From the IMG/VR virus record IMGVR_UViG_3300027766_000001: a stretch of 64,000 nucleotides of DNA. The stretch is one strand, 5' to 3'. The position numbers were made by a program, and so were the translations under genes. The notes beneath the pieces are model-generated. The model was not told where the DNA came from, did no database searches, and worked only from the letters and a program-made list of their open reading frames with translations. Shown in pieces: positions 8,828 to 45,666 of the stretch (the first letter of the stretch is position 1; each line of letters begins with the position of its first letter). Source of the stretch: a virus. Its lineage: Duplodnaviria; Caudoviricetes.

Positions 8828-8854
8828 AGTGCGTTCCTCTCATTGTAGTTGATT

Positions 8855-8876
8855 TTAAACCTATATTATCCATGTG
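8855..8876 (+). promoter_or_regulatory. Phage early promoter (TATATTA core)
   Basis: TTTTAAACCTATATTATCCATGTG; one of nine related sites; resembles the phiKZ early TATATTAC consensus. Confidence 0.6.
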
Positions 8877-8915
8877 AATATCTTAACCAATTTCTTAACC
8901 TGTAAGGATTTAACT

Positions 8916-9782
8916 ATGCGTGTACTGGCTATGAATCAGTTTGAGAACATGATTCGTTATGATGCGGACCTGCGCAACTACGGAAAGTTTTCTGTCTACA
9001 ATCACCCTACTGCCAAAGACGACAACCTGGCAGTGGTCTACATCCAGATCAACGGCCCACAGTGCTATGCCTTGAAAGTCACCCGTCTGATGGTGAACCC
9101 GGTTAACGTCGACGTCACTGACCTCACGGCTGCGGTGCGTAAACTGGAAGCGGATCTCGGTACCCGCTGGAATAACGGCCTGTTAGCCATCACAGCGCGT
9201 TCACTTCGTTACACAGGTGAATTTACCAACCTTATTAAAGAAAGCCCGCTGAAGGCGTTAGAGGAGGTCCTGAAAGACCCTCTGGGCTTTGACACCGAGT
9301 ACCAGAGCTTTGAAGTACCTCAGGCGATGAAAATGATCGAAGGTGCTAACCTGACCGAGATCACTAACTGGATCCAGAACAACAACGCCACGGTGCGCAG
9401 CTACATTCACTACACGAATGAAGGTGAGCAGTTTGTGGTGCTGGGTCGCCAGTTCCGTGAAGAATCGTTCCTGATGCTGACGTCGTACAACCCCGATAAA
9501 CTGGTGGCGTACTTCGACGGTATGGTAGCGGGTCGTCCGGTGCATCAACGTGTGGCGCTGGAACCGAACAGCTTCCAGGGCGACAAGTTCTTCATGGACC
9601 GCATGGGCAGAAACCCGGTCGAGCATTATGGCTCACTGTGGCGTCTGCGTCACTTCGGTACGGTTGTGACCGAAGACAAAGAACTGTACGTCCGTGGTCC
9701 GCACATCGCTGCTCGCGATCAGTTGAACATTCCTTCACAGGACGACTTCGACTTCTCTGAAAACCGCATCATCGTTATTTAA
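8916..9782 (+). CDS. Hypothetical early protein
   Basis: 288 aa from ATG 8916 with AAGGA RBS; first gene after the early promoter. Confidence 0.75.
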   Translation: MRVLAMNQFENMIRYDADLRNYGKFSVYNHPTAKDDNLAVVYIQINGPQCYALKVTRLMVNPVNVDVTDLTAAVRKLEADLGTRWNNGLLAITARSLRYTGEFTNLIKESPLKALEEVLKDPLGFDTEYQSFEVPQAMKMIEGANLTEITNWIQNNNATVRSYIHYTNEGEQFVVLGRQFREESFLMLTSYNPDKLVAYFDGMVAGRPVHQRVALEPNSFQGDKFFMDRMGRNPVEHYGSLWRLRHFGTVVTEDKELYVRGPHIAARDQLNIPSQDDFDFSENRIIVI

Positions 9783-16254: not shown

Positions 16255-16283
16255 AATCTCAAGTCTATATTACTGAGGTGATA
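16255..16283 (+). promoter_or_regulatory. Phage early promoter (TATATTAC)
   Basis: AAATCTCAAGTCTATATTACTGAGGTGAT; core at 16266-16273. Confidence 0.7.
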
Positions 16284-21051: not shown

Positions 21052-21136
21052 GGCGGTGTCGCATAGCGGCAATTGCAGGGGACTGTAAATCCCCCGACTT
21101 CGGTCTTCGATGGTTCGAGTCCATCCGCCGCCACCA
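21052..21136 (+). tRNA. tRNA-Tyr (GTA), 85 nt, CCA encoded
   Basis: Acceptor GGCGGTG/CGCCGCC-A-CCA; anticodon arm GGGGA-CTGTAAA-TCCCC; long variable arm; T-arm GATGG-TTCGAGT-CCATC. Confidence 0.97.
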
Positions 21137-21931: not shown

Positions 21932-22035
21932 GATCCATTTAACATGATGAAGCATACCAAGAGTACGTGAGCGGAACTTGATCCCAATCACATCTGTTTA
22001 TCCATGCGATGATAAACTACTCGAGGAAATTCATT

Positions 22036-22422
22036 ATGTTGAATAAAGAAGTGCTGTTAGCCCTGACCCCGTCTCTGACCGGCTTTAAAGATGAAGACCA
22101 TGACTACGGCCAGGTCTGGTATGACGAATGGTACTTCCGCGTGGAGAACCATGAACGCTACCATATCGTCTTTGGCTGGTATGAGTACGAGGATTACTCA
22201 GGACATTCCTATGTCTTTGGTTACGACAAGGAAGAGGATAAGTTCTTTGAAGTGGTCGCCTACCATTGCTCCTGCTACGGCTTGGAGGAAGGTTGGGATC
22301 CTGAGTACTTCGAATCAACAGCGTTACTGGCTGATTACCTGGCGAAGTTCAAGGGTAAAACCTACTCTTCAGGTCAGCTGACTTTGGTTGCGTTCTTGAA
22401 AGAGTGCGGAATCGAAGTATAA
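22036..22422 (+). CDS. Conserved small acidic phage protein
   Basis: 128 aa, GAGGA RBS, HCSCYGLE motif seen in a recurrent phage family. Confidence 0.75.
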   Translation: MLNKEVLLALTPSLTGFKDEDHDYGQVWYDEWYFRVENHERYHIVFGWYEYEDYSGHSYVFGYDKEEDKFFEVVAYHCSCYGLEEGWDPEYFESTALLADYLAKFKGKTYSSGQLTLVAFLKECGIEV

Positions 22423-22429
22423 CCGAATC

Positions 22430-22529
22430 GTCCGGATAGTTTAATAAGAACGGTGCGCCGGAATGCCCTTAAACTTACTAGGGGTGGTGTGCGCACAGGT
22501 GGTGGGGTCTGATCTCCCTCCGGACACCT
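22430..22529 (+). ncRNA. tRNA-like RNA A (expanded anticodon arm, degenerate T arm)
   Basis: 7-bp acceptor GTCCGGA/TCCGGAC-A-CC; T8A9 plus D-arm GTT-TAATAAG-AAC; GTGCGC/GCGCAC stem enclosing 32 nt; AGGT variable segment; weak GGGG/CTCC T-arm. Confidence 0.55.
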
Positions 22530-22538
22530 ATTCTCAAT

Positions 22539-22690
22539 GCTGGCACTAGCCAAACGGAAAGGCTTATACTTGGACGCTGAGTCGACGCAGTTATCAGCCA
22601 GGTATAGATTGCTCTGACAACACCATGTCATCATTAGACAATGTGATGTCATCATTATCGGGTTCGAGTCCCGGTGTGCTTCAGCTACCT
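22539..22690 (+). ncRNA. tRNA-like RNA B (expanded anticodon and variable arms)
   Basis: D-arm TA-GCC-AAACGGAAA-GGC; canonical T-arm ATCGGG-TTCGAGT-CCCGGT; acceptor GCTGGCAC/GTGC(TT)CAGC followed by T-ACCT; TATACTTGG/CCAGGTATA in place of the anticodon stem. Confidence 0.65.
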
Positions 22691-22691
22691 C

Positions 22692-22810
22692 TTTGTCGTT
22701 AGCCTGATGAGTCGCCGACATTAAACGCGACGAAACGTAGAACATGAAATTCATCCACTGAGGATTCACCACCTCGGTGCCCGCTAGGCATGTTCTATGT
22801 AGCAGTGAAG
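22692..22810 (+). ncRNA. Hammerhead ribozyme, type I, with pseudoknot
   Basis: CTGATGA 22704-22710; stem II GTCGC/GCGAC; GAAA 22732-22735; 12-bp stem III (A)CGTAGAACATG/CATGTTCTATG(T); GTA cleavage triplet ending 22801; stem I GC/GC; loop II CGACA complements TGTCG 22694-22698. Confidence 0.85.
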
Positions 22811-22975
22811 ATTCATTGACCAAGGTGTCTCGAACTTACACAGCCTTCTGCTCATCGGGTCACTCCCGGTACCAAGGTGAGCAGCGGGGTGTGGTAATTT
22901 GTCCGGTTACTGCGTCAAGGGCTGTAGGGGTATGGTCCTGGTTTTATCCTCAGATGTTCCATGTGAAAGCGGCTA

Positions 22976-23008
22976 AACCCCGGGGGTAACACCTCGGGGT
23001 TTATGCCG
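22976..23008 (+). terminator. Terminator closing the RNA island, TTTATGCCG class
   Basis: AACCCCGGGG-GTAACA-CCTCGGGGTTTATGCCG. Confidence 0.8.
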
Positions 23009-23025
23009 TTCTCGCAATGCAGATG

Positions 23026-23050
23026 ATTTCAAACCTATATTACACTGGTG
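23026..23050 (+). promoter_or_regulatory. Phage early promoter (TATATTAC)
   Basis: ATTTCAAACCTATATTACACTGGTG; core at 23036-23043. Confidence 0.7.
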
Positions 23051-23083
23051 ATGAATCCAACCATTTAAAATAAGGAGGTAATT

Positions 23084-23332
23084 ATGTTCATCAAAGCAAA
23101 ACTTTACAACGATGGTCAGAAGTCAACCAAGAGCGTGTTTATCAAAGCAAGCGATATCAGTGTGTGGTCGCAAAACGGCAGTAAAGATAACACGACCAAG
23201 CTGGAATTAATCAGTGGCTCGACAGTAACGATTGTCTGTGTTCCCGATAAGCTCGCGGGTTACATTCACGTGGCGTTGAACAAAGGCGATATCGAAGTAA
23301 ACGAAGACGGCGACGTCACGTATTTGAAATAA
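23084..23332 (+). CDS. Hypothetical early protein
   Basis: 82 aa, perfect TAAGGAGGT RBS, hairpin terminator at about 23336-23370. Confidence 0.8.
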   Translation: MFIKAKLYNDGQKSTKSVFIKASDISVWSQNGSKDNTTKLELISGSTVTIVCVPDKLAGYIHVALNKGDIEVNEDGDVTYLK

Positions 23333-27309: not shown

Positions 27310-28158
27310 TTAACGTTTCGGTGTTGCCCGACGAATTGCACGGTAACGACCCAGGGTGTTATTGTAGGCCGCTACACGCTGCCAACGTTCCCGGAAGAAG
27401 TCTTTGTAATTCTGTGCGGCATCCGAATACTCCATGATCACTTCACGGAACGCACCCAGTTCAACACCGCCCACTAACTGACCTTGGTCCAACTTGATAC
27501 GCAAGGTGTTATAGATGATCGCCTTGGTTGCCAGAACAGAGAGTTCTGAGAATGCCGGCCAGGAGTTGTTCTTGATGTTGTTCAGTTCCGCATCATTACT
27601 TAAGCGACAACGCAAGGTCAACTGGTTCGTGATGATCTGCGTCTCGTAGATGGCAATGGTGTTGAACCCAACGATTTCAATGTTGGCCAACTGAATTTCC
27701 ACCGCAGGTGCATAAGACTGCATCATCGACGTCATGCCGGCTGTGACCGCACCTTGATACCCATTCTGGTTACCGGAGCCGGAATACGTACCCACACCTG
27801 CACCCGGTGCACCGTACAGTGCATCTGGATAACCGTAGAGCAAAGACAGTATGGACGTGATGCGTAGACCACGTGTCTTTGCCTGGTCAACCCGAAACAC
27901 GGTGGTAAAGTTATCAGGTTTCCAATACTCTGTGTCATACAACGGAATGATGACTTCCTGACCCCCAAGCAGGTCACAGTCTTTTAACACTTTGGCATCA
28001 AAGACTTTGCTGCGCAACACTTCATTCATTGAAGTATTGTATACCTGCCTGGCTCCCGTAGAACTGTACAGCTGACGATCCCCAAGAAATGCCGCACGAA
28101 GTACTTCCATGGGGATTTCAAACAGGATGTCGGAGATGGCATTATCTATAGCACTCAT
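27310..28158 (-). CDS. Conserved chimallivirus protein divergent from phuZ (possibly virion)
   Basis: 282 aa from MSAIDNAISDIL (AAGAGG RBS); back-to-back with the tubulin gene. Confidence 0.6.
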   Translation of the reverse strand: MSAIDNAISDILFEIPMEVLRAAFLGDRQLYSSTGARQVYNTSMNEVLRSKVFDAKVLKDCDLLGGQEVIIPLYDTEYWKPDNFTTVFRVDQAKTRGLRITSILSLLYGYPDALYGAPGAGVGTYSGSGNQNGYQGAVTAGMTSMMQSYAPAVEIQLANIEIVGFNTIAIYETQIITNQLTLRCRLSNDAELNNIKNNSWPAFSELSVLATKAIIYNTLRIKLDQGQLVGGVELGAFREVIMEYSDAAQNYKDFFRERWQRVAAYNNTLGRYRAIRRATPKR

Positions 28159-28243
28159 GGCTACCTCTTTAGTAATGCAATACATACCCAACAATATATA
28201 TGTTGAACCTACACCTATCATAGAAATTAACCGGGAGTGCATC

Positions 28244-29227
28244 ATGTCCAAACGTATTACGCGTATTTTTGCTTGTGGTGGTGGTGCGATTAGCATTACT
28301 TCCGATCTGACCGACTACGTCAATGTCAAAGGTTTCTCTGACACCAAAGTCTCCCGTCTGGATACCTCGAACAAGAACATGACGGCAAACATGCCGGAGT
28401 CATCCAAGTTCGTGCTGACGGGCGCTGATGGCTCAGGTAAACAACGTGACCACAACTACAAACCGGTTGTGGCATCCATGGATAAAATCCTGGCTGAACA
28501 TCCGCCGGAAGATTACAACATCGTGATCTTTACAGCAGGTGGCGGTTCTGGTTCTGTCATTGGCCCGGTACTGGTCGGTGAGCTGTTGAAACGTAAAACC
28601 CCAGTCATTGCACTGGTGATCGGTTCAATCGGCGATGAAACCCAGGCACAGAACTCCGTGAACACCCTGAAGTCACTTGCCGGTATTCAGCAGGCGAACA
28701 AAGTGCCGGTGGTCTTCTCCTACTTCGAAGTCAACCAGCACAACAGCCAGGCCGATGTTGATCAGCAAGTCCGCAGCCTGCTGCCAAGCCTGCTGAACCT
28801 GTTGGACAGTGATAACACCATCATTGACAACAAAGACATCATCAACCTGCTGAACTGGACCAACGTCCGTAAAGAGATCCCGGCGCAGCTGGTTGCGCTC
28901 GAAGTCTTTATCGGTGCTGAAGATCTGGCGACCATCTCAGGTGCGGCACCGGTGACCATGGCGTCGATCTACCCGGATGCAGAACGTGAGTATCTGCCGG
29001 TGACCCCGTCTTATTCAACCGACGGTATCCGTTCAGAACTGTCACGTGAAAACCCCTACTACGGCAAAACCCTGCACTATGTGGTGCATGCTAAACCAGT
29101 GAAGCCTGCCTTCGATTCGCTGGAATCTGCTCTGCGTCGTATTCGCGATGCGCAGCGTTCTCAGCACACCATCGAGTCAGTGCTGGGTAGCGACGATAGC
29201 GTTGACAACAACGGTATGGTCGTTTAA
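28244..29227 (+). CDS. phuZ: Phage tubulin PhuZ/TubZ
   Basis: N-terminal FACGGGAI, GADGSGK, tubulin signature AGGGSGSVIGP, IIDNKDI T7-like loop; 327 aa. Confidence 0.93.
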   Translation: MSKRITRIFACGGGAISITSDLTDYVNVKGFSDTKVSRLDTSNKNMTANMPESSKFVLTGADGSGKQRDHNYKPVVASMDKILAEHPPEDYNIVIFTAGGGSGSVIGPVLVGELLKRKTPVIALVIGSIGDETQAQNSVNTLKSLAGIQQANKVPVVFSYFEVNQHNSQADVDQQVRSLLPSLLNLLDSDNTIIDNKDIINLLNWTNVRKEIPAQLVALEVFIGAEDLATISGAAPVTMASIYPDAEREYLPVTPSYSTDGIRSELSRENPYYGKTLHYVVHAKPVKPAFDSLESALRRIRDAQRSQHTIESVLGSDDSVDNNGMVV

Positions 29228-37348: not shown

Positions 37349-37376
37349 TTTTACAACCCTATATTACCTAAGTGTA
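37349..37376 (+). promoter_or_regulatory. Phage early promoter for chimallin (TATATTAC)
   Basis: TTTTACAACCCTATATTACCTAAGTGTA; core at 37360-37367. Confidence 0.75.
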
Positions 37377-37452
37377 ATTACCATGGTAATTTCATTCGCG
37401 AATGTTAAATATAAGTGGCCCCGCCACTGAACACCAAAAAGGAACAAGCAGT

Positions 37453-39504
37453 ATGAAAACTCGTAACGACCAGCCGCAACCAGCTAACAACTCTCTGGCC
37501 GATGCACTGAACCAGGCGAACGCACAGCAGCAGCCTCAGGCACAACCGCAGGCGCAGCCACAACCTCAGGTTCAACAGCCGCAGGGTACTGCTCAGCAGC
37601 AGCCGATCTTCCAGCAGCCGCAACAGGGCTTCGCTGGTCAGGCGCCGCAGCAGGATGGCCAGGATCGTAACTCTAAGATCTTCGGTCTGAACAACCGCAT
37701 GTCGCGTACCTTCTCTTCTCAGACCTATTCTGAGAACTTCAAGATCGCGAACGAAGCGGTGCAGGAATTCTGCAAACCGTACGAAGGTGATGGCTTCAAC
37801 CAGACCTTCTTCGTAATCCCACTGCAGGACCAGAACCTGCACTGTGCTGCACTGATCTACGTCATGGCTATCAGCCAGTCCGCTTACGGCGTGTACACCT
37901 ACATGCTGGAAAACACCGGTAGCCCGCTGAAGCCGCTGGTAGGTAACGACCAGTTCACTGGCGAGCGCTATGAGCTGCCGCGCATGACCGGTTCTCAGTA
38001 CGATGATATCTACTGGGGTGCCGTGAAGGGCGCAGTAATCCGTCATCTGAAACTGCAGAACAACTCTGCTGTCCAGATCATGGAAGCTGGCGCGGGTGTT
38101 ATCCATGCGGAAATGGATTGGAAAGACGGTGGCGCAATCGGTCGTCTGCTGAACAACGCAGAAAACGCCGTGTACGCTTACGCGAACCGCATCTCTGGCT
38201 ACAAGATCGAAGAGCCGCTGAACCTGGCAACTGCGATCAACCCGCTGGTTGACCGTCTGTCCGCTGGTTTCAACTTCAATCCGCAGCCTCTGATTACGGC
38301 TGATGGTCAGCCGATGCGCAACGACGTAGAGATCAAACTGACCGTGTCTTCTGAAGGCAACGTGCAGGTACAGAACTCTGAGCCGTTCACTACCGTTCAC
38401 GGTTACGTGGAACTGGTAAGCGCAGGTCCGCAGCCGGTCATGATCCCGAACGGTTACGGTCAGATGATGCAGGCGCCGCAGCGCTACTACCCGCAGCTGG
38501 CAATCACTGCCGTTGACCAGGGTATCTTCGACGCAGAAGCACCGGAGTTCCAGGTGCTGGGTCTGTACGTAGCCACCCTGTTGCTGGAAAACAACAACTG
38601 GATGAATGCGTTCGCACCACGTATGGTCGGCGGTGTTGATATCAACGATATCGGCGCACTGAACTACGAACTGCGCATGGGCGTGGATCCGCAAGATCCT
38701 AACGCGCGTCCGAAGAAGATCGATACCAAAACGCACGAGTTCAACAACAACGCACTGCAGCAGCTGCTGAGCCAGGCGTGCTTCCCGAACATGTCCGTAG
38801 TCATGGACATCGAAGAAACTGGTCACCGTAACTGGGTGAACTCCATGTTCCTTCAAGCGGGCGGTATCCCGGGTTCTAACGCAACCATGCTGCCGCAGGA
38901 CGGCCGTCTGGCGCACGAAGCAGTTATCGCTGCTGCGAACAACCTGACCAATGGCGAGTTCAGTAAGTTCTTTACTGACACTACCAAACTGATCACTATC
39001 CGTGACGGTTCTCGTATCCAGGGTGGTTACTACCTGAGCGACGATGGTAAGCGTCTGGACGTTCGTAACGTTGACCTGGTAGCAGTACTGAACTTCCTGG
39101 GTGAATCTGATCCGCGTCGCGTTGAAGAATGGAAAATGATCTGTTCTTCTACCTCTGGCCTGTCTGGTCCGAAACGCATCGCACTGCGTCAGCAGTTCCT
39201 GCAGACTATCCTGGGTGCATCGTACGTGCAGAAATGCTACTACGAGCGCGTCATGATTTCCAACGACTTCCTGGCCGCACTGCGTTCTGCAATCATCGCA
39301 GCCGGTGTTCAGGTTCGTCCGGAGAACATGTCTAACCAGTACAACGCCATGTCTTACGGCATGCCGCTGGCCGCACAGTATGGCTTCAACACCCATACCG
39401 CGTCTTCGCTGCAGGCTGCAGGCTACGGTCAGCTGGATCAGCAGGGTCGTGTCGTACAGTTCGGTAACTACCGTACTCCGTTCGGCCACTTCAACGTCCA
39501 GTAA
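37453..39504 (+). CDS. chmA: Chimallin, major phage nuclear shell protein
   Basis: 683 aa; extremely optimised codons; immediately upstream of the nvRNAP beta-prime gene and two genes from the DNA polymerase (phiKZ gp54 synteny); Q/P-rich N-terminal extension. Confidence 0.85.
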   Translation: MKTRNDQPQPANNSLADALNQANAQQQPQAQPQAQPQPQVQQPQGTAQQQPIFQQPQQGFAGQAPQQDGQDRNSKIFGLNNRMSRTFSSQTYSENFKIANEAVQEFCKPYEGDGFNQTFFVIPLQDQNLHCAALIYVMAISQSAYGVYTYMLENTGSPLKPLVGNDQFTGERYELPRMTGSQYDDIYWGAVKGAVIRHLKLQNNSAVQIMEAGAGVIHAEMDWKDGGAIGRLLNNAENAVYAYANRISGYKIEEPLNLATAINPLVDRLSAGFNFNPQPLITADGQPMRNDVEIKLTVSSEGNVQVQNSEPFTTVHGYVELVSAGPQPVMIPNGYGQMMQAPQRYYPQLAITAVDQGIFDAEAPEFQVLGLYVATLLLENNNWMNAFAPRMVGGVDINDIGALNYELRMGVDPQDPNARPKKIDTKTHEFNNNALQQLLSQACFPNMSVVMDIEETGHRNWVNSMFLQAGGIPGSNATMLPQDGRLAHEAVIAAANNLTNGEFSKFFTDTTKLITIRDGSRIQGGYYLSDDGKRLDVRNVDLVAVLNFLGESDPRRVEEWKMICSSTSGLSGPKRIALRQQFLQTILGASYVQKCYYERVMISNDFLAALRSAIIAAGVQVRPENMSNQYNAMSYGMPLAAQYGFNTHTASSLQAAGYGQLDQQGRVVQFGNYRTPFGHFNVQ

Positions 39505-43189: not shown

Positions 43190-43633
43190 ATGAGTCGTTA
43201 TTATAAGAAGTCAGACAGCAGCTATGGTGGCGAATGGCAGACGGGTGCGATTGTTCGTGACGTGTGTATTTTGTTCGTGGTGTTTATCGTGTTGTCTATG
43301 GCAGGTTGTCCGTATTACCGTGTGTGGGATCAGCAACAAACTGGTAAAGCCGCGTTAGCACGTGCCGTACAAGATCGTCAGATCTCAATCGAAGATGCAC
43401 GTGCTAAGAAAGAAGCGGCTAAGATGTTGGCTGATGCAGAAATTGAACGGGCTAAAGGCGTGGCGGAAGCTAACCGTATCATTGGTAACTCGTTGAAAGG
43501 TAATGACTCGTATCTACACTACCTCTGGTTGGATTCACTGAAAGACACCAAGAACCAGGTGATCTATGTACCGACCGAAGCCAACATGCCTATCATGGAA
43601 GCCGGGCGGATGGTTGAGACTCCAAACAAGTAG
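43190..43633 (+). CDS. Single-pass membrane protein with SPFH/band-7-like coiled coil
   Basis: Hydrophobic VCILFVVFIVLSMAGC segment, then AEIERAKGVAEANRIIG...YLHYLW...VIYVPTE. Confidence 0.7.
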   Translation: MSRYYKKSDSSYGGEWQTGAIVRDVCILFVVFIVLSMAGCPYYRVWDQQQTGKAALARAVQDRQISIEDARAKKEAAKMLADAEIERAKGVAEANRIIGNSLKGNDSYLHYLWLDSLKDTKNQVIYVPTEANMPIMEAGRMVETPNK

Positions 43634-45306: not shown

Positions 45307-45572
45307 TGTCAACGTCCTTCACGATCAGGCACTATGCTCGCAAACACCGTAGTTGGCGCCATCCGTTATACCACGGTAATGTGTGCGAAGAGCTGTATCA
45401 CCAGATCGCTGAACTCAAGGTTATTCGTCATCACTACGCCTTGCTCCTTAAAACGAACAAGTCTAGTTATAACCGTAATATGTTTGACGCGCTCTGTGTT
45501 AAGATCAAAGACCTGCGTGACCAGTATCATGTCGCGTATCGGGAATCTGATCCTCATCGTAAACCATCATAA
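45306..45572 (+). CDS. Small basic protein
   Basis: 88 aa, AAGGAG RBS, terminator at about 45569-45605. Confidence 0.7.
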   Translation: MSTSFTIRHYARKHRSWRHPLYHGNVCEELYHQIAELKVIRHHYALLLKTNKSSYNRNMFDALCVKIKDLRDQYHVAYRESDPHRKPS

Positions 45573-45634
45573 CAGGCAGGGGTTTCGACCCCTGCCTTTA
45601 TGCCGTTTCTTTTCTTTTATTTTTAAGTTGCAGA

Positions 45635-45666
45635 AAATCTCAGACCTATATGACTGAGGTGTATAA
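45635..45666 (+). promoter_or_regulatory. Phage early promoter variant (TATATGAC)
   Basis: AAATCTCAGACCTATATGACTGAGGTGTATAA, near-identical to the 16255-16283 site. Confidence 0.65.

What the first reader, a model, noticed from the sequence alone, without database searches (positions are those of the whole stretch)
22539..22690. tRNA-like RNA B: canonical D and T arms with expanded anticodon and variable domains
Seen: class II-like D-arm (TAGCCAAACGGAAAGGC) and an intact T-arm (GGGTTCGAGTCCC). The anticodon position is a 9-bp helix (TATACTTGG/CCAGGTATA) capping 24 nt with a CTGA/TCAG hairpin. The variable region is about 50 nt with two hairpins (TGACA/TGTCA and CATCATT/AATGTGATG). Inference: retention of the D/T elbow with replaced decoding parts suggests elbow mimicry, as tmRNA and Y-like RNAs do. 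Alternatively the anticodon insert is a removable intron: reading the loop from 22570 gives TT-GGA, i.e. Ser.
Basis: partly seen in the sequence, partly recalled or inferred. Interest (0 to 1): 0.7.

Follow-up and report, generated by a model that had tools for sequence, protein, structure and literature searches.

The report
Anticodon-less tRNA look-alike in giant phage
A roughly 150-base RNA gene in a nucleus-forming giant phage folds like a transfer RNA and is kept in that shape by compensating mutations, but its codon-reading loop is replaced by a long arm tipped with an almost unchanging 24-base cap, so it is a maintained tRNA mimic of unknown job, not a decoder.

Summary
Window 22539-22689 (+) folds as a class II-type cloverleaf: an 8-bp acceptor-like stem, a 3-bp D stem with A14/G18/A21, a 9-bp helix in place of the anticodon arm, a variable hairpin and a canonical T arm. 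Only three distinct homologues exist in the collections searched (window; Erwinia phage pEa_SNUABM_48/37; one IMG/VR contig). Even so, 96% of pair cells are paired and 10 of 27 pairs show compensatory double changes, against 0-2 in slid controls. The tertiary elbow pair 19:56 switches G:C to U:A. The 24-nt cap is nearly invariant.

It is not a decoding tRNA. ARAGORN (with introns) and Rfam find nothing, two of three copies lack U33, there is no BHB or group I intron, the acceptor/T stack is 13-14 bp, and the tail is URCC.

B sits in a 660-nt non-coding locus of a chimallivirus: tRNA-like A, B, a pseudoknotted type I hammerhead, a 3' domain and a terminator. B is accessory: two related complete genomes keep A, the hammerhead and the 3' domain without it.

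The closest analogue is phage T4 RNAC, whose function is also unknown. This scan has noted comparable anticodon-less tRNA look-alikes in other phages. Function is inferred, and no expression data could be obtained.

The parts
22535..22538 (+). Invariant 5' leader CAAU, with U at -1 before the first paired G; proposed RNase P site after 22538
   Evidence: Columns 1-4 are invariant in A4. The RNase P preference for U(-1) is own knowledge and was not tested.
22539..22546 (+). Acceptor-like stem, 5' strand (GCUGGCAC)
   Evidence: Pairs with 22676-22679 and 22682-22685. Four of 8 pairs show double changes across relatives.
22547..22563 (+). U8-A9 and a class II-type D arm: 3-bp stem GCC/GGC, 9-nt loop with A14, G18, G19, A21
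   Evidence: The stem is invariant. Loop position 19 is G here and U in relatives, covarying with T-loop position 56.
22565..22573 (+). 5' strand of the 9-bp helix that replaces the anticodon stem-loop
   Evidence: Pairs with 22598-22606. Four pairs have double changes; one pair is broken in two sequences.
22574..22597 (+). Nearly invariant 24-nt apical module ACGCUGAGUCGACGCAGUUAUCAG. Likely a 4-bp hairpin GCUG/CAGU with 8-nt loop AGUCGACG, which holds the palindrome GUCGAC, above an asymmetric internal loop.
   Evidence: 22 of 24 positions are identical in three sequences whose stems differ. RNAalifold fold. Unique in the window.
22598..22606 (+). 3' strand of the 9-bp helix
22607..22642 (+). 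Linker: conserved GAUUG, then lineage-specific sequence. Holds the first copy and the start of the second copy of a 21-nt tandem duplication (22616-22636 / 22637-22657).
22643..22655 (+). Variable-arm hairpin GUGAU-GUC-AUCAU abutting the T arm; shared position with relatives (AAUGAU-GCUG-GUCAUU)
   Evidence: RNAalifold columns 108-123
22657..22675 (+). T arm: 5-6 bp stem and loop UUCGAGU (U54 U55 C56 G57 A58)
   Evidence: C56 becomes A in relatives, together with G19 becoming U.
22676..22685 (+). Acceptor-like stem, 3' strand GUGC-uu-CAGC; the UU bulge is in the window only
22686..22689 (+). Single-stranded tail UACC (UACC / UGCC in relatives); not NCCA
22430..22528 (+). Context: tRNA-like RNA A, present in all five lineages of the locus
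   Evidence: The acceptor stem covaries: GUCCGGA, GUCCAGA, GCUCAGA.
22695..22801 (+). Context: pseudoknotted type I hammerhead ribozyme. Features are GUCGU at 22695-22699, the core from 22704, loop II CGAC at 22716-22719, and a predicted cut after A22801.
22802..23004 (+). Context: conserved 3' domain, then a terminator-like hairpin (22975-23004)

Best explanation
B (22539-22689, + strand) is a tRNA-derived RNA gene that no longer decodes.

What it keeps is what makes the L-shape and what tRNA-handling enzymes read: an acceptor-like stem, U8, A14, G18, the 19:56 elbow pair, A21 and a T loop U54-U55-N56-R57-A58. The anticodon stem-loop has been replaced by a 9-10 bp helix that presents an almost invariant 24-nt apical module.

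Proposed mechanism:
1. B is made as part of a long + strand polycistronic transcript that also carries tRNA-Tyr, two small ORFs, tRNA-like A, a hammerhead ribozyme and a 3' RNA domain (inferred from gene order, one strand, and a single terminator-like hairpin at 22975-23004).
2. Host RNase P cuts after the invariant CAAU leader, 5' of G22539 (inferred).
3. The 3' side is freed by cleavage or trimming in the U-rich spacer 22690-22694 and by the hammerhead cut further downstream (inferred).
4. The released ~150-nt RNA is stabilised by its tRNA body and acts through the invariant apical module, which binds a still unknown protein or RNA (inferred from conservation).

It is not aminoacylated or used on the ribosome. 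It is an accessory gene: the rest of the locus exists without it in two related phages.

Shown: the fold, its maintenance by selection, non-membership of the decoding tRNAs, and the presence/absence pattern.
Inferred: transcription, the processing steps and the partner.
For: Fold and selection:
- 96.3% of cells are paired, and 10 of 27 pairs have compensatory double changes. None of 500 shuffles matches this; slid controls give 0-2.
- RNAalifold recovers the same cloverleaf independently, and so does the single-sequence MFE fold.
- The tertiary 19:56 pair switches G:C to U:A. A14, G18, A21, U54, U55, R57 and A58 stay fixed.
- Eight G-U cells fix the + strand as the RNA strand.

Invariant cap: 22 of 24 nt are identical while the flanking helix changes at 5 of 9 pairs.

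Non-coding: the only long ORF over it is antisense, 149 aa with a TTG start, and is not kept in relatives. The gap is unannotated in both GenBank relatives.

Not decoding:
- ARAGORN finds nothing, with or without introns.
- The Rfam tRNA model has no hit at E<=10.
- There is no 7-nt loop and no U33 in 2 of 3 copies. The acceptor/T stack is 13-14 bp. The tail is URCC.

Accessory and single copy:
- A covariance model built on B finds it once in pEa_SNUABM_48 and not at all in the complete genomes of vB_SalM_SA002 and IMG/VR UViG_3300011242_000002.
- In UViG_3300011242_000002, A abuts the hammerhead; in vB_SalM_SA002 a 61-nt spacer separates them.

Slot logic: the same hammerhead subtype always follows a tRNA-shaped element.
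- A, in L134 and SA002.
- B, in the window, L004 and Ea48.
- A bona fide tRNA-Leu(UAA), in metagenome contig L114.

Precedent: T4 RNAC, a stable RNA from the T4 tRNA cluster, folds into a closing stem, a long arm, a hairpin and a canonical T arm.
Against:
- There are only three distinct sequences, so the covariation counts rest on few independent events.
- The acceptor-like stem is irregular, with a UU bulge in the window and a C-A mismatch in Ea48. The tail is URCC, not RCCA. RNase P and CCA-enzyme handling are therefore plausible but unproven.
- The folding-energy z-score is unremarkable at -1.13.
- B is dispensable in two related phages, and its variable region is in flux (a 21-nt duplication). 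That would also fit a slowly decaying element.
- No partner for the cap was found. There is no complementary site in the 64-kb window and no informative co-occurring gene.
Confidence: 0.5

Rival explanations
1. B acts only in cis. It is a tRNA-shaped punctuation mark and folding insulator. It recruits RNase P and tRNA 3'-processing enzymes to cut the polycistronic RNA. It also keeps upstream sequence from mispairing with the pseudoknot strand of the hammerhead that starts 6 nt after its tail. The excised RNA itself has no job.
For: - The hammerhead of this subtype always lies directly 3' of a tRNA-shaped element: A in L134 and SA002, B in the window and L004, and a real tRNA-Leu in L114.
- B keeps exactly the features that processing enzymes read.
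Against: - A alone fills this slot in two phages, so B adds nothing to that role.
- Punctuation would not need a 24-nt invariant cap on a covarying 9-bp helix.
- In Ea48 a 47-nt hairpin separates B from the hammerhead.
Confidence: 0.22
2. B is a former class II tRNA gene in slow decay. It has no function of its own and is tolerated because it sits in a non-coding stretch.
For: - It is lost from SA002, whose spacer aligns weakly to the 3' third of B: score 45 against 26 +/- 4 for shuffles, partly driven by hammerhead-proximal bases.
- It is absent from G001.
- It has a bulge or mismatch in the acceptor stem, a duplication in the variable region and a non-CCA tail.
Against: - Ten compensatory pair changes, including a tertiary pair, at about 70% overall identity are not expected of neutral decay.
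- The cap is nearly invariant while the surrounding helix changes.
Confidence: 0.1
3. B is a working tRNA-Ser (anticodon GGA) whose anticodon loop carries a short removable intron, as the first reader suggested as an alternative.
For: - The body is class II-like, with a 3-bp D stem and a long variable arm.
- Reading from 22570 gives UU-GGA. The relatives would read AGA, also a serine anticodon.
- Phage tRNA-Ser species with 8-bp acceptor stems are known (PMC5389517).
Against: - Positions 32-33 are AA in two of three copies, and their changes are compensated on the other strand.
- There is no bulge-helix-bulge motif, and the insert is far too short for a group I intron, the only intron type known in bacterial and phage tRNAs (own knowledge).
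- ARAGORN -i finds nothing at default stringency and gives inconsistent anticodons when forced.
- The acceptor/T stack is 13-14 bp, and there is no NCCA tail.
Confidence: 0.03
4. B regulates the neighbouring hammerhead, or self-associates, through its apical loop. GUCGAC contains both strands (GUCG and CGAC) of the ribozyme's loop II pseudoknot and is self-complementary.
For: - The loop AGUCGACG is invariant.
- The predicted loop-loop self-duplex is -10.3 kcal/mol. Pairing to either pseudoknot strand is -5 to -6, similar to the pseudoknot itself at -6.3.
- A palindromic kissing loop cannot drift by single mutations, which would explain the invariance (inference).
Against: - 4.6% of random 8-nt loops hold a 6-nt palindrome.
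- Complementarity to the ribozyme is only 4 bp.
- The ribozyme is conserved without B in two phages.
- The invariance extends well beyond the palindrome.
Confidence: 0.1

Closest known systems
Phage T4 RNAC (species 1 RNA, rnaC) and RNAD, small stable RNAs of the T4 tRNA cluster
   Same: - A phage-encoded RNA of about 140 nt lying in the tRNA region.
- A canonical T arm (CCGGG-UUCGAAU-CCCGG).
- A closing acceptor-like stem with mismatches.
- A long hairpin arm where the anticodon arm would be, and a second long hairpin at the variable-arm position.
- Biological role unknown (PMC3014915, PMC9697503).
   Different: - No detectable homology: the B model scores rnaC at 12.7 bits, no better than a real T4 tRNA-Gly at 14.3 bits.
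- The rnaC MFE fold shows no D arm, whereas B keeps one.
- B carries an invariant cap and abuts a hammerhead.
- The host phage is a nucleus-forming chimallivirus, not a T-even phage.
Class II elongator tRNAs (Ser, Leu, Tyr), including phage 8/4 tRNA-Ser and allo-tRNAs (Mukai et al., PMC5389517)
   Same: - A 3-bp D stem, a long variable arm, a T loop and elbow nucleotides.
- An 8-bp acceptor stem, as in 8/4 tRNAs.
- Some allo-tRNA-like sequences are thought to be non-translational.
   Different: - No 5-bp anticodon stem with a 7-nt loop.
- The acceptor/T stack is 13-14 bp, not 12.
- The tail is URCC.
- Not detected by ARAGORN or Rfam RF00005.
tRNA-like processing modules in long RNAs (mascRNA of MALAT1 and the NEAT1 tRNA-like element; PMC12941219 abstract, otherwise own knowledge)
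   Same: A tRNA-shaped module inside a longer non-coding transcript, which would be cut out by tRNA-processing enzymes and so define the ends of its neighbours.
   Different: These are eukaryotic, and their processing is shown experimentally. For B, processing is inferred only. B also has a conserved apical module that a mere processing signal would not need.
tRNA-like domains of bacterial and phage Y RNAs (YrlA) and of tmRNA
   Same: Elbow mimicry: T and D arm contacts are kept while the decoding function is lost. Some jumbo phages carry Ro/TROVE proteins with a tRNA-like RNA partner (PMC7824862).
   Different: - No Rfam match to YrlA or tmRNA, and no ARAGORN tmRNA call.
- In B the RNA termini are at the acceptor end, and there is no Ro-binding stem or tag ORF.
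- None of the 28 window ORFs scanned against Pfam matched a Ro/TROVE family; the scan was partial.

Membership tests
Canonical elongator tRNA (Rfam RF00005) | Detected by tRNA covariance model or ARAGORN | tested here: not met
   Both tools find only tRNA-Tyr at 21052-21136. There is no RF00005 hit on B at E<=10, and ARAGORN finds none at default stringency, with or without introns.
Canonical elongator tRNA (Rfam RF00005) | 5-bp anticodon stem with a 7-nt loop, U33 and an anticodon | tested here: not met
   A 9-bp covarying helix with a 24-nt cap takes its place. The would-be position 33 is A in 2 of 3 copies.
Canonical elongator tRNA (Rfam RF00005) | 7-bp acceptor plus 5-bp T stem (12-bp branch) and an N73-CCA end | tested here: not met
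   The acceptor-like stem is 8 bp, with a bulge or mismatch, and the T stem is 5-6 bp. The tail is UACC or UGCC.
Canonical elongator tRNA (Rfam RF00005) | D/T elbow: G18, the 19:56 pair, U54-A58, U55, R57; also U8, A14, A21 | tested here: met
   All are present. The 19:56 pair covaries from G:C to U:A.
Intron-containing tRNA | Group I intron (catalytic core over about 200 nt) or a bulge-helix-bulge splice motif in the anticodon arm | tested here: not met
   The insert is 24-33 nt. The helix runs on without 3-nt bulges flanking a 4-bp helix. No group I family appears in the Rfam scan.
tmRNA | tRNA-like domain with an alanine-type acceptor, a tag reading frame and pseudoknots | tested here: not met
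   ARAGORN -m finds none, and there is no Rfam tmRNA hit.
YrlA / Y RNA | Match to the Rfam YrlA / Y RNA models; a Ro-binding stem formed by the termini | tested here: not met
   No hit at E<=10. The termini close the acceptor-like stem instead.
YrlA / Y RNA | A Ro60/Rsr (TROVE) protein encoded nearby or in the genome | tested here: inconclusive
   None of the 28 window ORFs scanned against Pfam matched TROVE. Only 64 kb of the genome is available.
T4 RNAC-like phage stable tRNA-like RNAs | Lies in the phage tRNA region; about 120-150 nt; canonical T arm; closing stem; long arm in place of the anticodon arm | tested here: met
   A real tRNA-Tyr lies 1.4 kb upstream on the same strand. B is 151 nt. 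Architecture was compared with the rnaC fold.
T4 RNAC-like phage stable tRNA-like RNAs | Sequence or structure homology to T4 rnaC | tested here: not met
   The B model scores rnaC at 12.7 bits, no better than an ordinary tRNA. They are analogues, not demonstrable homologues.
T4 RNAC-like phage stable tRNA-like RNAs | Accumulates as a discrete stable RNA cut out of a precursor by RNase P | not testable with these tools

The most novel reading that the evidence does not exclude
The tRNA body is only a chassis. Under this reading, the invariant apical loop AGUCGACG (palindrome GUCGAC) makes B pair loop-to-loop. It would pair with a second B molecule, or with the two strands of the neighbouring hammerhead's pseudoknot. 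B would then be a tRNA-shaped building block of a higher-order RNA assembly, or a trans-acting switch of a self-cleaving ribozyme, in a nucleus-forming phage.
Probability: 0.1. Interest if true: 0.75.

Novelty: new variant of a known kind. Interest (0 to 1): 0.5.

Why it matters
Phage tRNA clusters have been known since T4 to hold stable tRNA-shaped RNAs (RNAC, RNAD) whose function is still unknown after fifty years.

B is a clean, testable example of that kind.
- Its elbow is demonstrably under selection, down to a covarying tertiary pair.
- Its decoding arm is replaced by a frozen 24-nt module that must be the working end.
- Natural knock-outs exist in sister phages.

It also sits in a fixed order with another tRNA mimic, a hammerhead ribozyme and a released 3' RNA. 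This is in a chimallivirus, where transcripts are made inside a protein-walled nucleus.

Finding the partner of the cap would give a function to a widespread but unannotated class of phage RNAs. None of these is in Rfam 15, and genome annotators miss them.

Tried and rejected

2. More homologues. All of these searches added no further B copy.
- The exact 18-nt cap in IMG/VR gave one true hit (L004) and one coding chance hit.
- In genome contigs it gave 18 hits. The twelve screened with the B model (L115-L126) gave at most cap-only matches at E>0.4; five (L128-L132) were not screened.
- The hammerhead-subtype pattern in metagenomes gave L113 (the same sequence as L004), L112 and L114.
- The A-based pattern gave L134 and L135, which lack B.
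- A protein-anchored search with the upstream ORF found no relative in IMG/VR. The downstream ORF has no match in INPHARED.
- BLAST of the locus against INPHARED found 3 records only.

3. General phage hammerheads. 88 segments carrying the same stem II were scanned with ARAGORN and none has a tRNA nearby. The tRNA adjacency is therefore special to this subtype.

4. Paralogues of B in the window: none.

5. Antisense targets of the cap in the window: none on the opposite strand. An 8-nt complementarity to 22909-22916 in the 3' domain is not kept in Ea48, and that segment is used in a covarying helix of its own (reading).

6. Minus-strand C/D-box sRNA-like hits (sR5, sR14 and others, 9-17 bits, far below threshold) come from the duplicated AUGAUGA words and were rejected.

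7. Phyletic profile.
- 84 window ORFs were compared with the complete genomes of SA002, Ea48 and G001.
- Only ORF 43190-43633 shares B's pattern cleanly (ORF 45334-45657 does so only through a partial match).
- It has no Pfam family, and its absence from the 37%-complete L004 contig is uninformative.

8. Coding potential: the antisense 149-aa ORF is not conserved.

Full report
**Where it is.** The finding lies in a 661-nt stretch (22423-23083) between two + strand ORFs (22009-22422 and 23084-23332). The window belongs to a nucleus-forming jumbo phage. It encodes chimallin (37402-39501), a PhuZ-type tubulin (28109-29224), a phiKZ-type internal head protein and split multisubunit RNA polymerase subunits. 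ARAGORN and Rfam at gathering thresholds see only one RNA gene in 64 kb, tRNA-Tyr at 21052-21136.

**Relatives of the locus.** BLAST against 50,697 phage records finds the stretch in three records at 68-72% identity. These are Erwinia phages pEa_SNUABM_48 and _37 and Salmonella phage vB_SalM_SA002. In the two whose annotation was checked (pEa_SNUABM_48 and SA002) it is an unannotated gap just downstream of tRNA-Tyr. Pattern scans added further relatives:
- an IMG/VR contig (L004, the same sequence as metagenome contig L113);
- a more distant complete 273-kb phage (L134, which is G001) and its near-twin L135.

All four whole genomes compared are syntenic with the window and roughly equidistant from it, at a mean 55-58% amino-acid identity.

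**Anatomy of the locus.** From 5' to 3':
1. tRNA-like RNA A (22430-22528), present in all five lineages, with a covarying acceptor stem.
2. B (22539-22689).
3. A hammerhead core (CUGAUGAG 22704-22711, stem II UCGC/GCGA, CGAAAC 22731-22736).
   - It scores 30.3 bits against Rfam Hammerhead_3, below the gathering score.
   - By its layout it is a type I hammerhead, like 80-odd other phage hammerheads with the same stem II.
   - It has a long covarying stem III, a GUCG::CGAC loop II pseudoknot of the kind described by Perreault et al. (PMC3088659), and a predicted cut after A22801.
4. A conserved 3' domain.
5. A terminator-like hairpin (22975-23004).

**The observation.** On the alignment of the three distinct B sequences (A4) I tested an explicit structure:
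- an 8-bp acceptor-like stem (22539-22546 with 22676-22679 and 22682-22685);
- the D stem GCC/GGC;
- the 9-bp helix 22565-22573 / 22598-22606;
- a 6-bp T stem (22657-22662 / 22670-22675);
- the tertiary pair between D-loop position 19 (22557) and T-loop position 56 (22665).

The result was 96.3% of cells paired and 10 of 27 pairs with changes on both sides. None of 500 shuffles reached these values, and sliding the 3' partners by 1-3 columns gave 29-47% paired and 0-2 double changes. RNAalifold, which was not told my structure, returned the same cloverleaf. So did the MFE fold of the window sequence alone, although its energy z-score (-1.13) is unremarkable. Eight G-U cells would be A-C on the other strand, so the RNA is the + strand.

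**The elbow.** This is the most telling detail. The 9-nt D loop reads A-A-A-C-G-G-A-A-A in the window and U-A-A-A-G-U-C-A-U in the relatives. The T loop reads UUCGAGU against UUAGAUU. A14, G18, A21, U54, U55, R57 and A58 are therefore fixed, and the 19:56 pair changes from G:C to U:A in step. A dying tRNA gene would not do that.

- The closing stem has 8 pairs, with a UU bulge in the window only and a C-A mismatch in Ea48.
- The ~50-nt variable region is a recent 21-nt tandem duplication. Only the hairpin next to the T arm (22643-22655) has a counterpart in relatives.
- The CTGA/TCAG hairpin of the cap is broken by a U-C mismatch in L004. GCUG/CAGY with loop AGUCGACG fits all three. Because the cap barely varies, neither hairpin can be proven.

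**Not a decoder.**
- ARAGORN finds nothing at default stringency, with or without its intron option. At 80% stringency it forces fits with different anticodons in different phages.
- The Rfam tRNA, tmRNA and Y-RNA models do not match at E<=10.
- Read as an intron-bearing tRNA-Ser, the window would give UU-GGA, but the relatives give AA-AGA. The differences are matched by changes on the opposite strand, so selection is on a helix, not on a loop.
- There is no bulge-helix-bulge motif, and 24-33 nt cannot be a group I intron.
- The stacked acceptor/T branch would be 13-14 bp rather than 12, and the tail is UACC/UGCC rather than NCCA.

**Not coding.** The only long ORF across it is antisense (149 aa, TTG start) and is broken in the relatives.

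**Distribution.**
- A covariance model of B (R1) finds it once each in the window, L004/L113 and pEa_SNUABM_48.
- It finds B nowhere in the complete genomes of SA002 and G001.
- In G001, A is followed after 11 nt by the hammerhead.
- In SA002 a 61-nt spacer stands in B's place. It aligns weakly to B's 3' third, in line with a deletion.

B is thus an accessory, single-copy gene inserted between A and the ribozyme.

**A rule of order.** The hammerhead of this subtype always follows a tRNA-shaped element, whether A, B or a real tRNA. In an unrelated metagenome contig (L114) that element is a genuine tRNA-Leu(UAA), whose CCA end is 2 nt from the ribozyme's GUCGU. Other phage hammerheads with the same stem II have no tRNA nearby.

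**What it most likely does.** Because A alone can occupy the slot before the ribozyme, B's reason for existing should lie in what is unique to it. That is the 24-nt apical module, identical at 22 of 24 positions while the helix beneath it has changed at five of nine pairs.

I therefore read B as a tRNA-bodied carrier. The tRNA part lets host enzymes cut it out of a long transcript and keeps it stable. The invariant CAAU leader puts U at -1, which bacterial RNase P favours (own knowledge). The cap would then bind a partner, but I could not identify one:
- There is no complementary site in the window.
- The one ORF that cleanly shares B's phyletic pattern (43190-43633) has no known family.

The loop contains the palindrome GUCGAC. 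This could support loop-loop dimers (-10.3 kcal/mol) or contact either strand of the ribozyme's pseudoknot. However, 4.6% of random 8-nt loops hold such a palindrome, so this stays a minority reading.

**Comparison with known RNAs.** The nearest analogue is T4 RNAC.
- I fetched the T4 tRNA region and folded rnaC. It has a mismatched closing stem, a ~60-nt arm, a 22-nt hairpin and a textbook T arm.
- Two reviews confirm that the roles of RNAC and RNAD remain unknown.
- There is no detectable homology: 12.7 bits, less than an ordinary T4 tRNA scores.
- I therefore call B an analogue, not a family member.

Irregular phage and soil tRNAs with 8-bp acceptor stems are known (PMC5389517), but they keep anticodon loops. 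Earlier notes of this scan (unchecked AI notes) report other anticodon-less tRNA look-alikes in unrelated phages. If those hold, B belongs to a broad, unannotated class.

**Verdict.** The feature is real and under selection. The intron reading is rejected and the elbow-mimicry reading is supported in general terms. Function is unknown. It is a new variant of a known but unexplained kind, of moderate interest.

Noticed in passing
window 22430-22528: tRNA-like RNA A is present in all five lineages. Its 7-bp acceptor stem covaries (GUCCGGA / GUCCAGA / GCUCAGA). It has an extended anticodon arm ending in an invariant 7-nt loop AACUUAC, which is a Lys-type CUU triplet but with A at position 33. Its tail is ACC, and ACCA in SA002.
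   Followed up: partly
L114:960-1080 (- strand), metagenome contig Ga0302322_100548894: A bona fide tRNA-Leu(UAA) is followed 2 nt after its CCA by the same pseudoknotted hammerhead subtype (GUCGUA...CUGAUGAG-UCGC-CGACAUUAAAU-GCGA-CGAAAC). A second GUCGUAC word lies about 250 nt downstream.
   Followed up: partly
window 16266-16273, 23036-23043, 37360-37367: TATATTAC occurs three times (0.96 expected). Each copy is 34-41 nt upstream of a + strand ORF start, and one of those ORFs is chimallin. It resembles the early promoter word of phiKZ-like phages (own memory). No copy lies between 16266 and the RNA locus, so the locus may be the tail of a 6.7-kb early operon.
   Followed up: partly
window 22854-22873: Inside the 3' domain, AUCGGG-UCACU-CCCGGUACC repeats the stem of B's T arm (AUCGGG...CCCGGU) and its ACC tail, but with a 5-nt loop. 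This may be a fragment of a further tRNA-derived module. It is not seen in Ea48 or SA002.
   Followed up: no
window 43190-43633: This 147-aa ORF has no Pfam family. It is 76-81% identical to a pEa_SNUABM_48 gene (neighbouring accessory genes are about 40%). It is absent from the complete genomes of SA002 and G001, the same presence/absence pattern as B.
   Followed up: partly
L001:3252-3298 (pEa_SNUABM_48): An extra 47-nt hairpin (GAUCAAAUU...AAUUGAUC), containing a second GUCGU word, is inserted between B and the hammerhead in this phage only.
   Followed up: no
window 22616-22657: This is a 21-nt tandem duplication inside B's variable region. On the minus strand its AUGAUGA and CUGA words draw weak, sub-threshold hits to archaeal C/D-box sRNA models (9-17 bits), judged spurious.
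   Followed up: yes
window 23007-23042 and 8832-8868: A 37-nt stretch around the promoter-like word downstream of the terminator has an 84% identical copy just upstream of ORF 8874-9782. This suggests a shared regulatory element.
   Followed up: no
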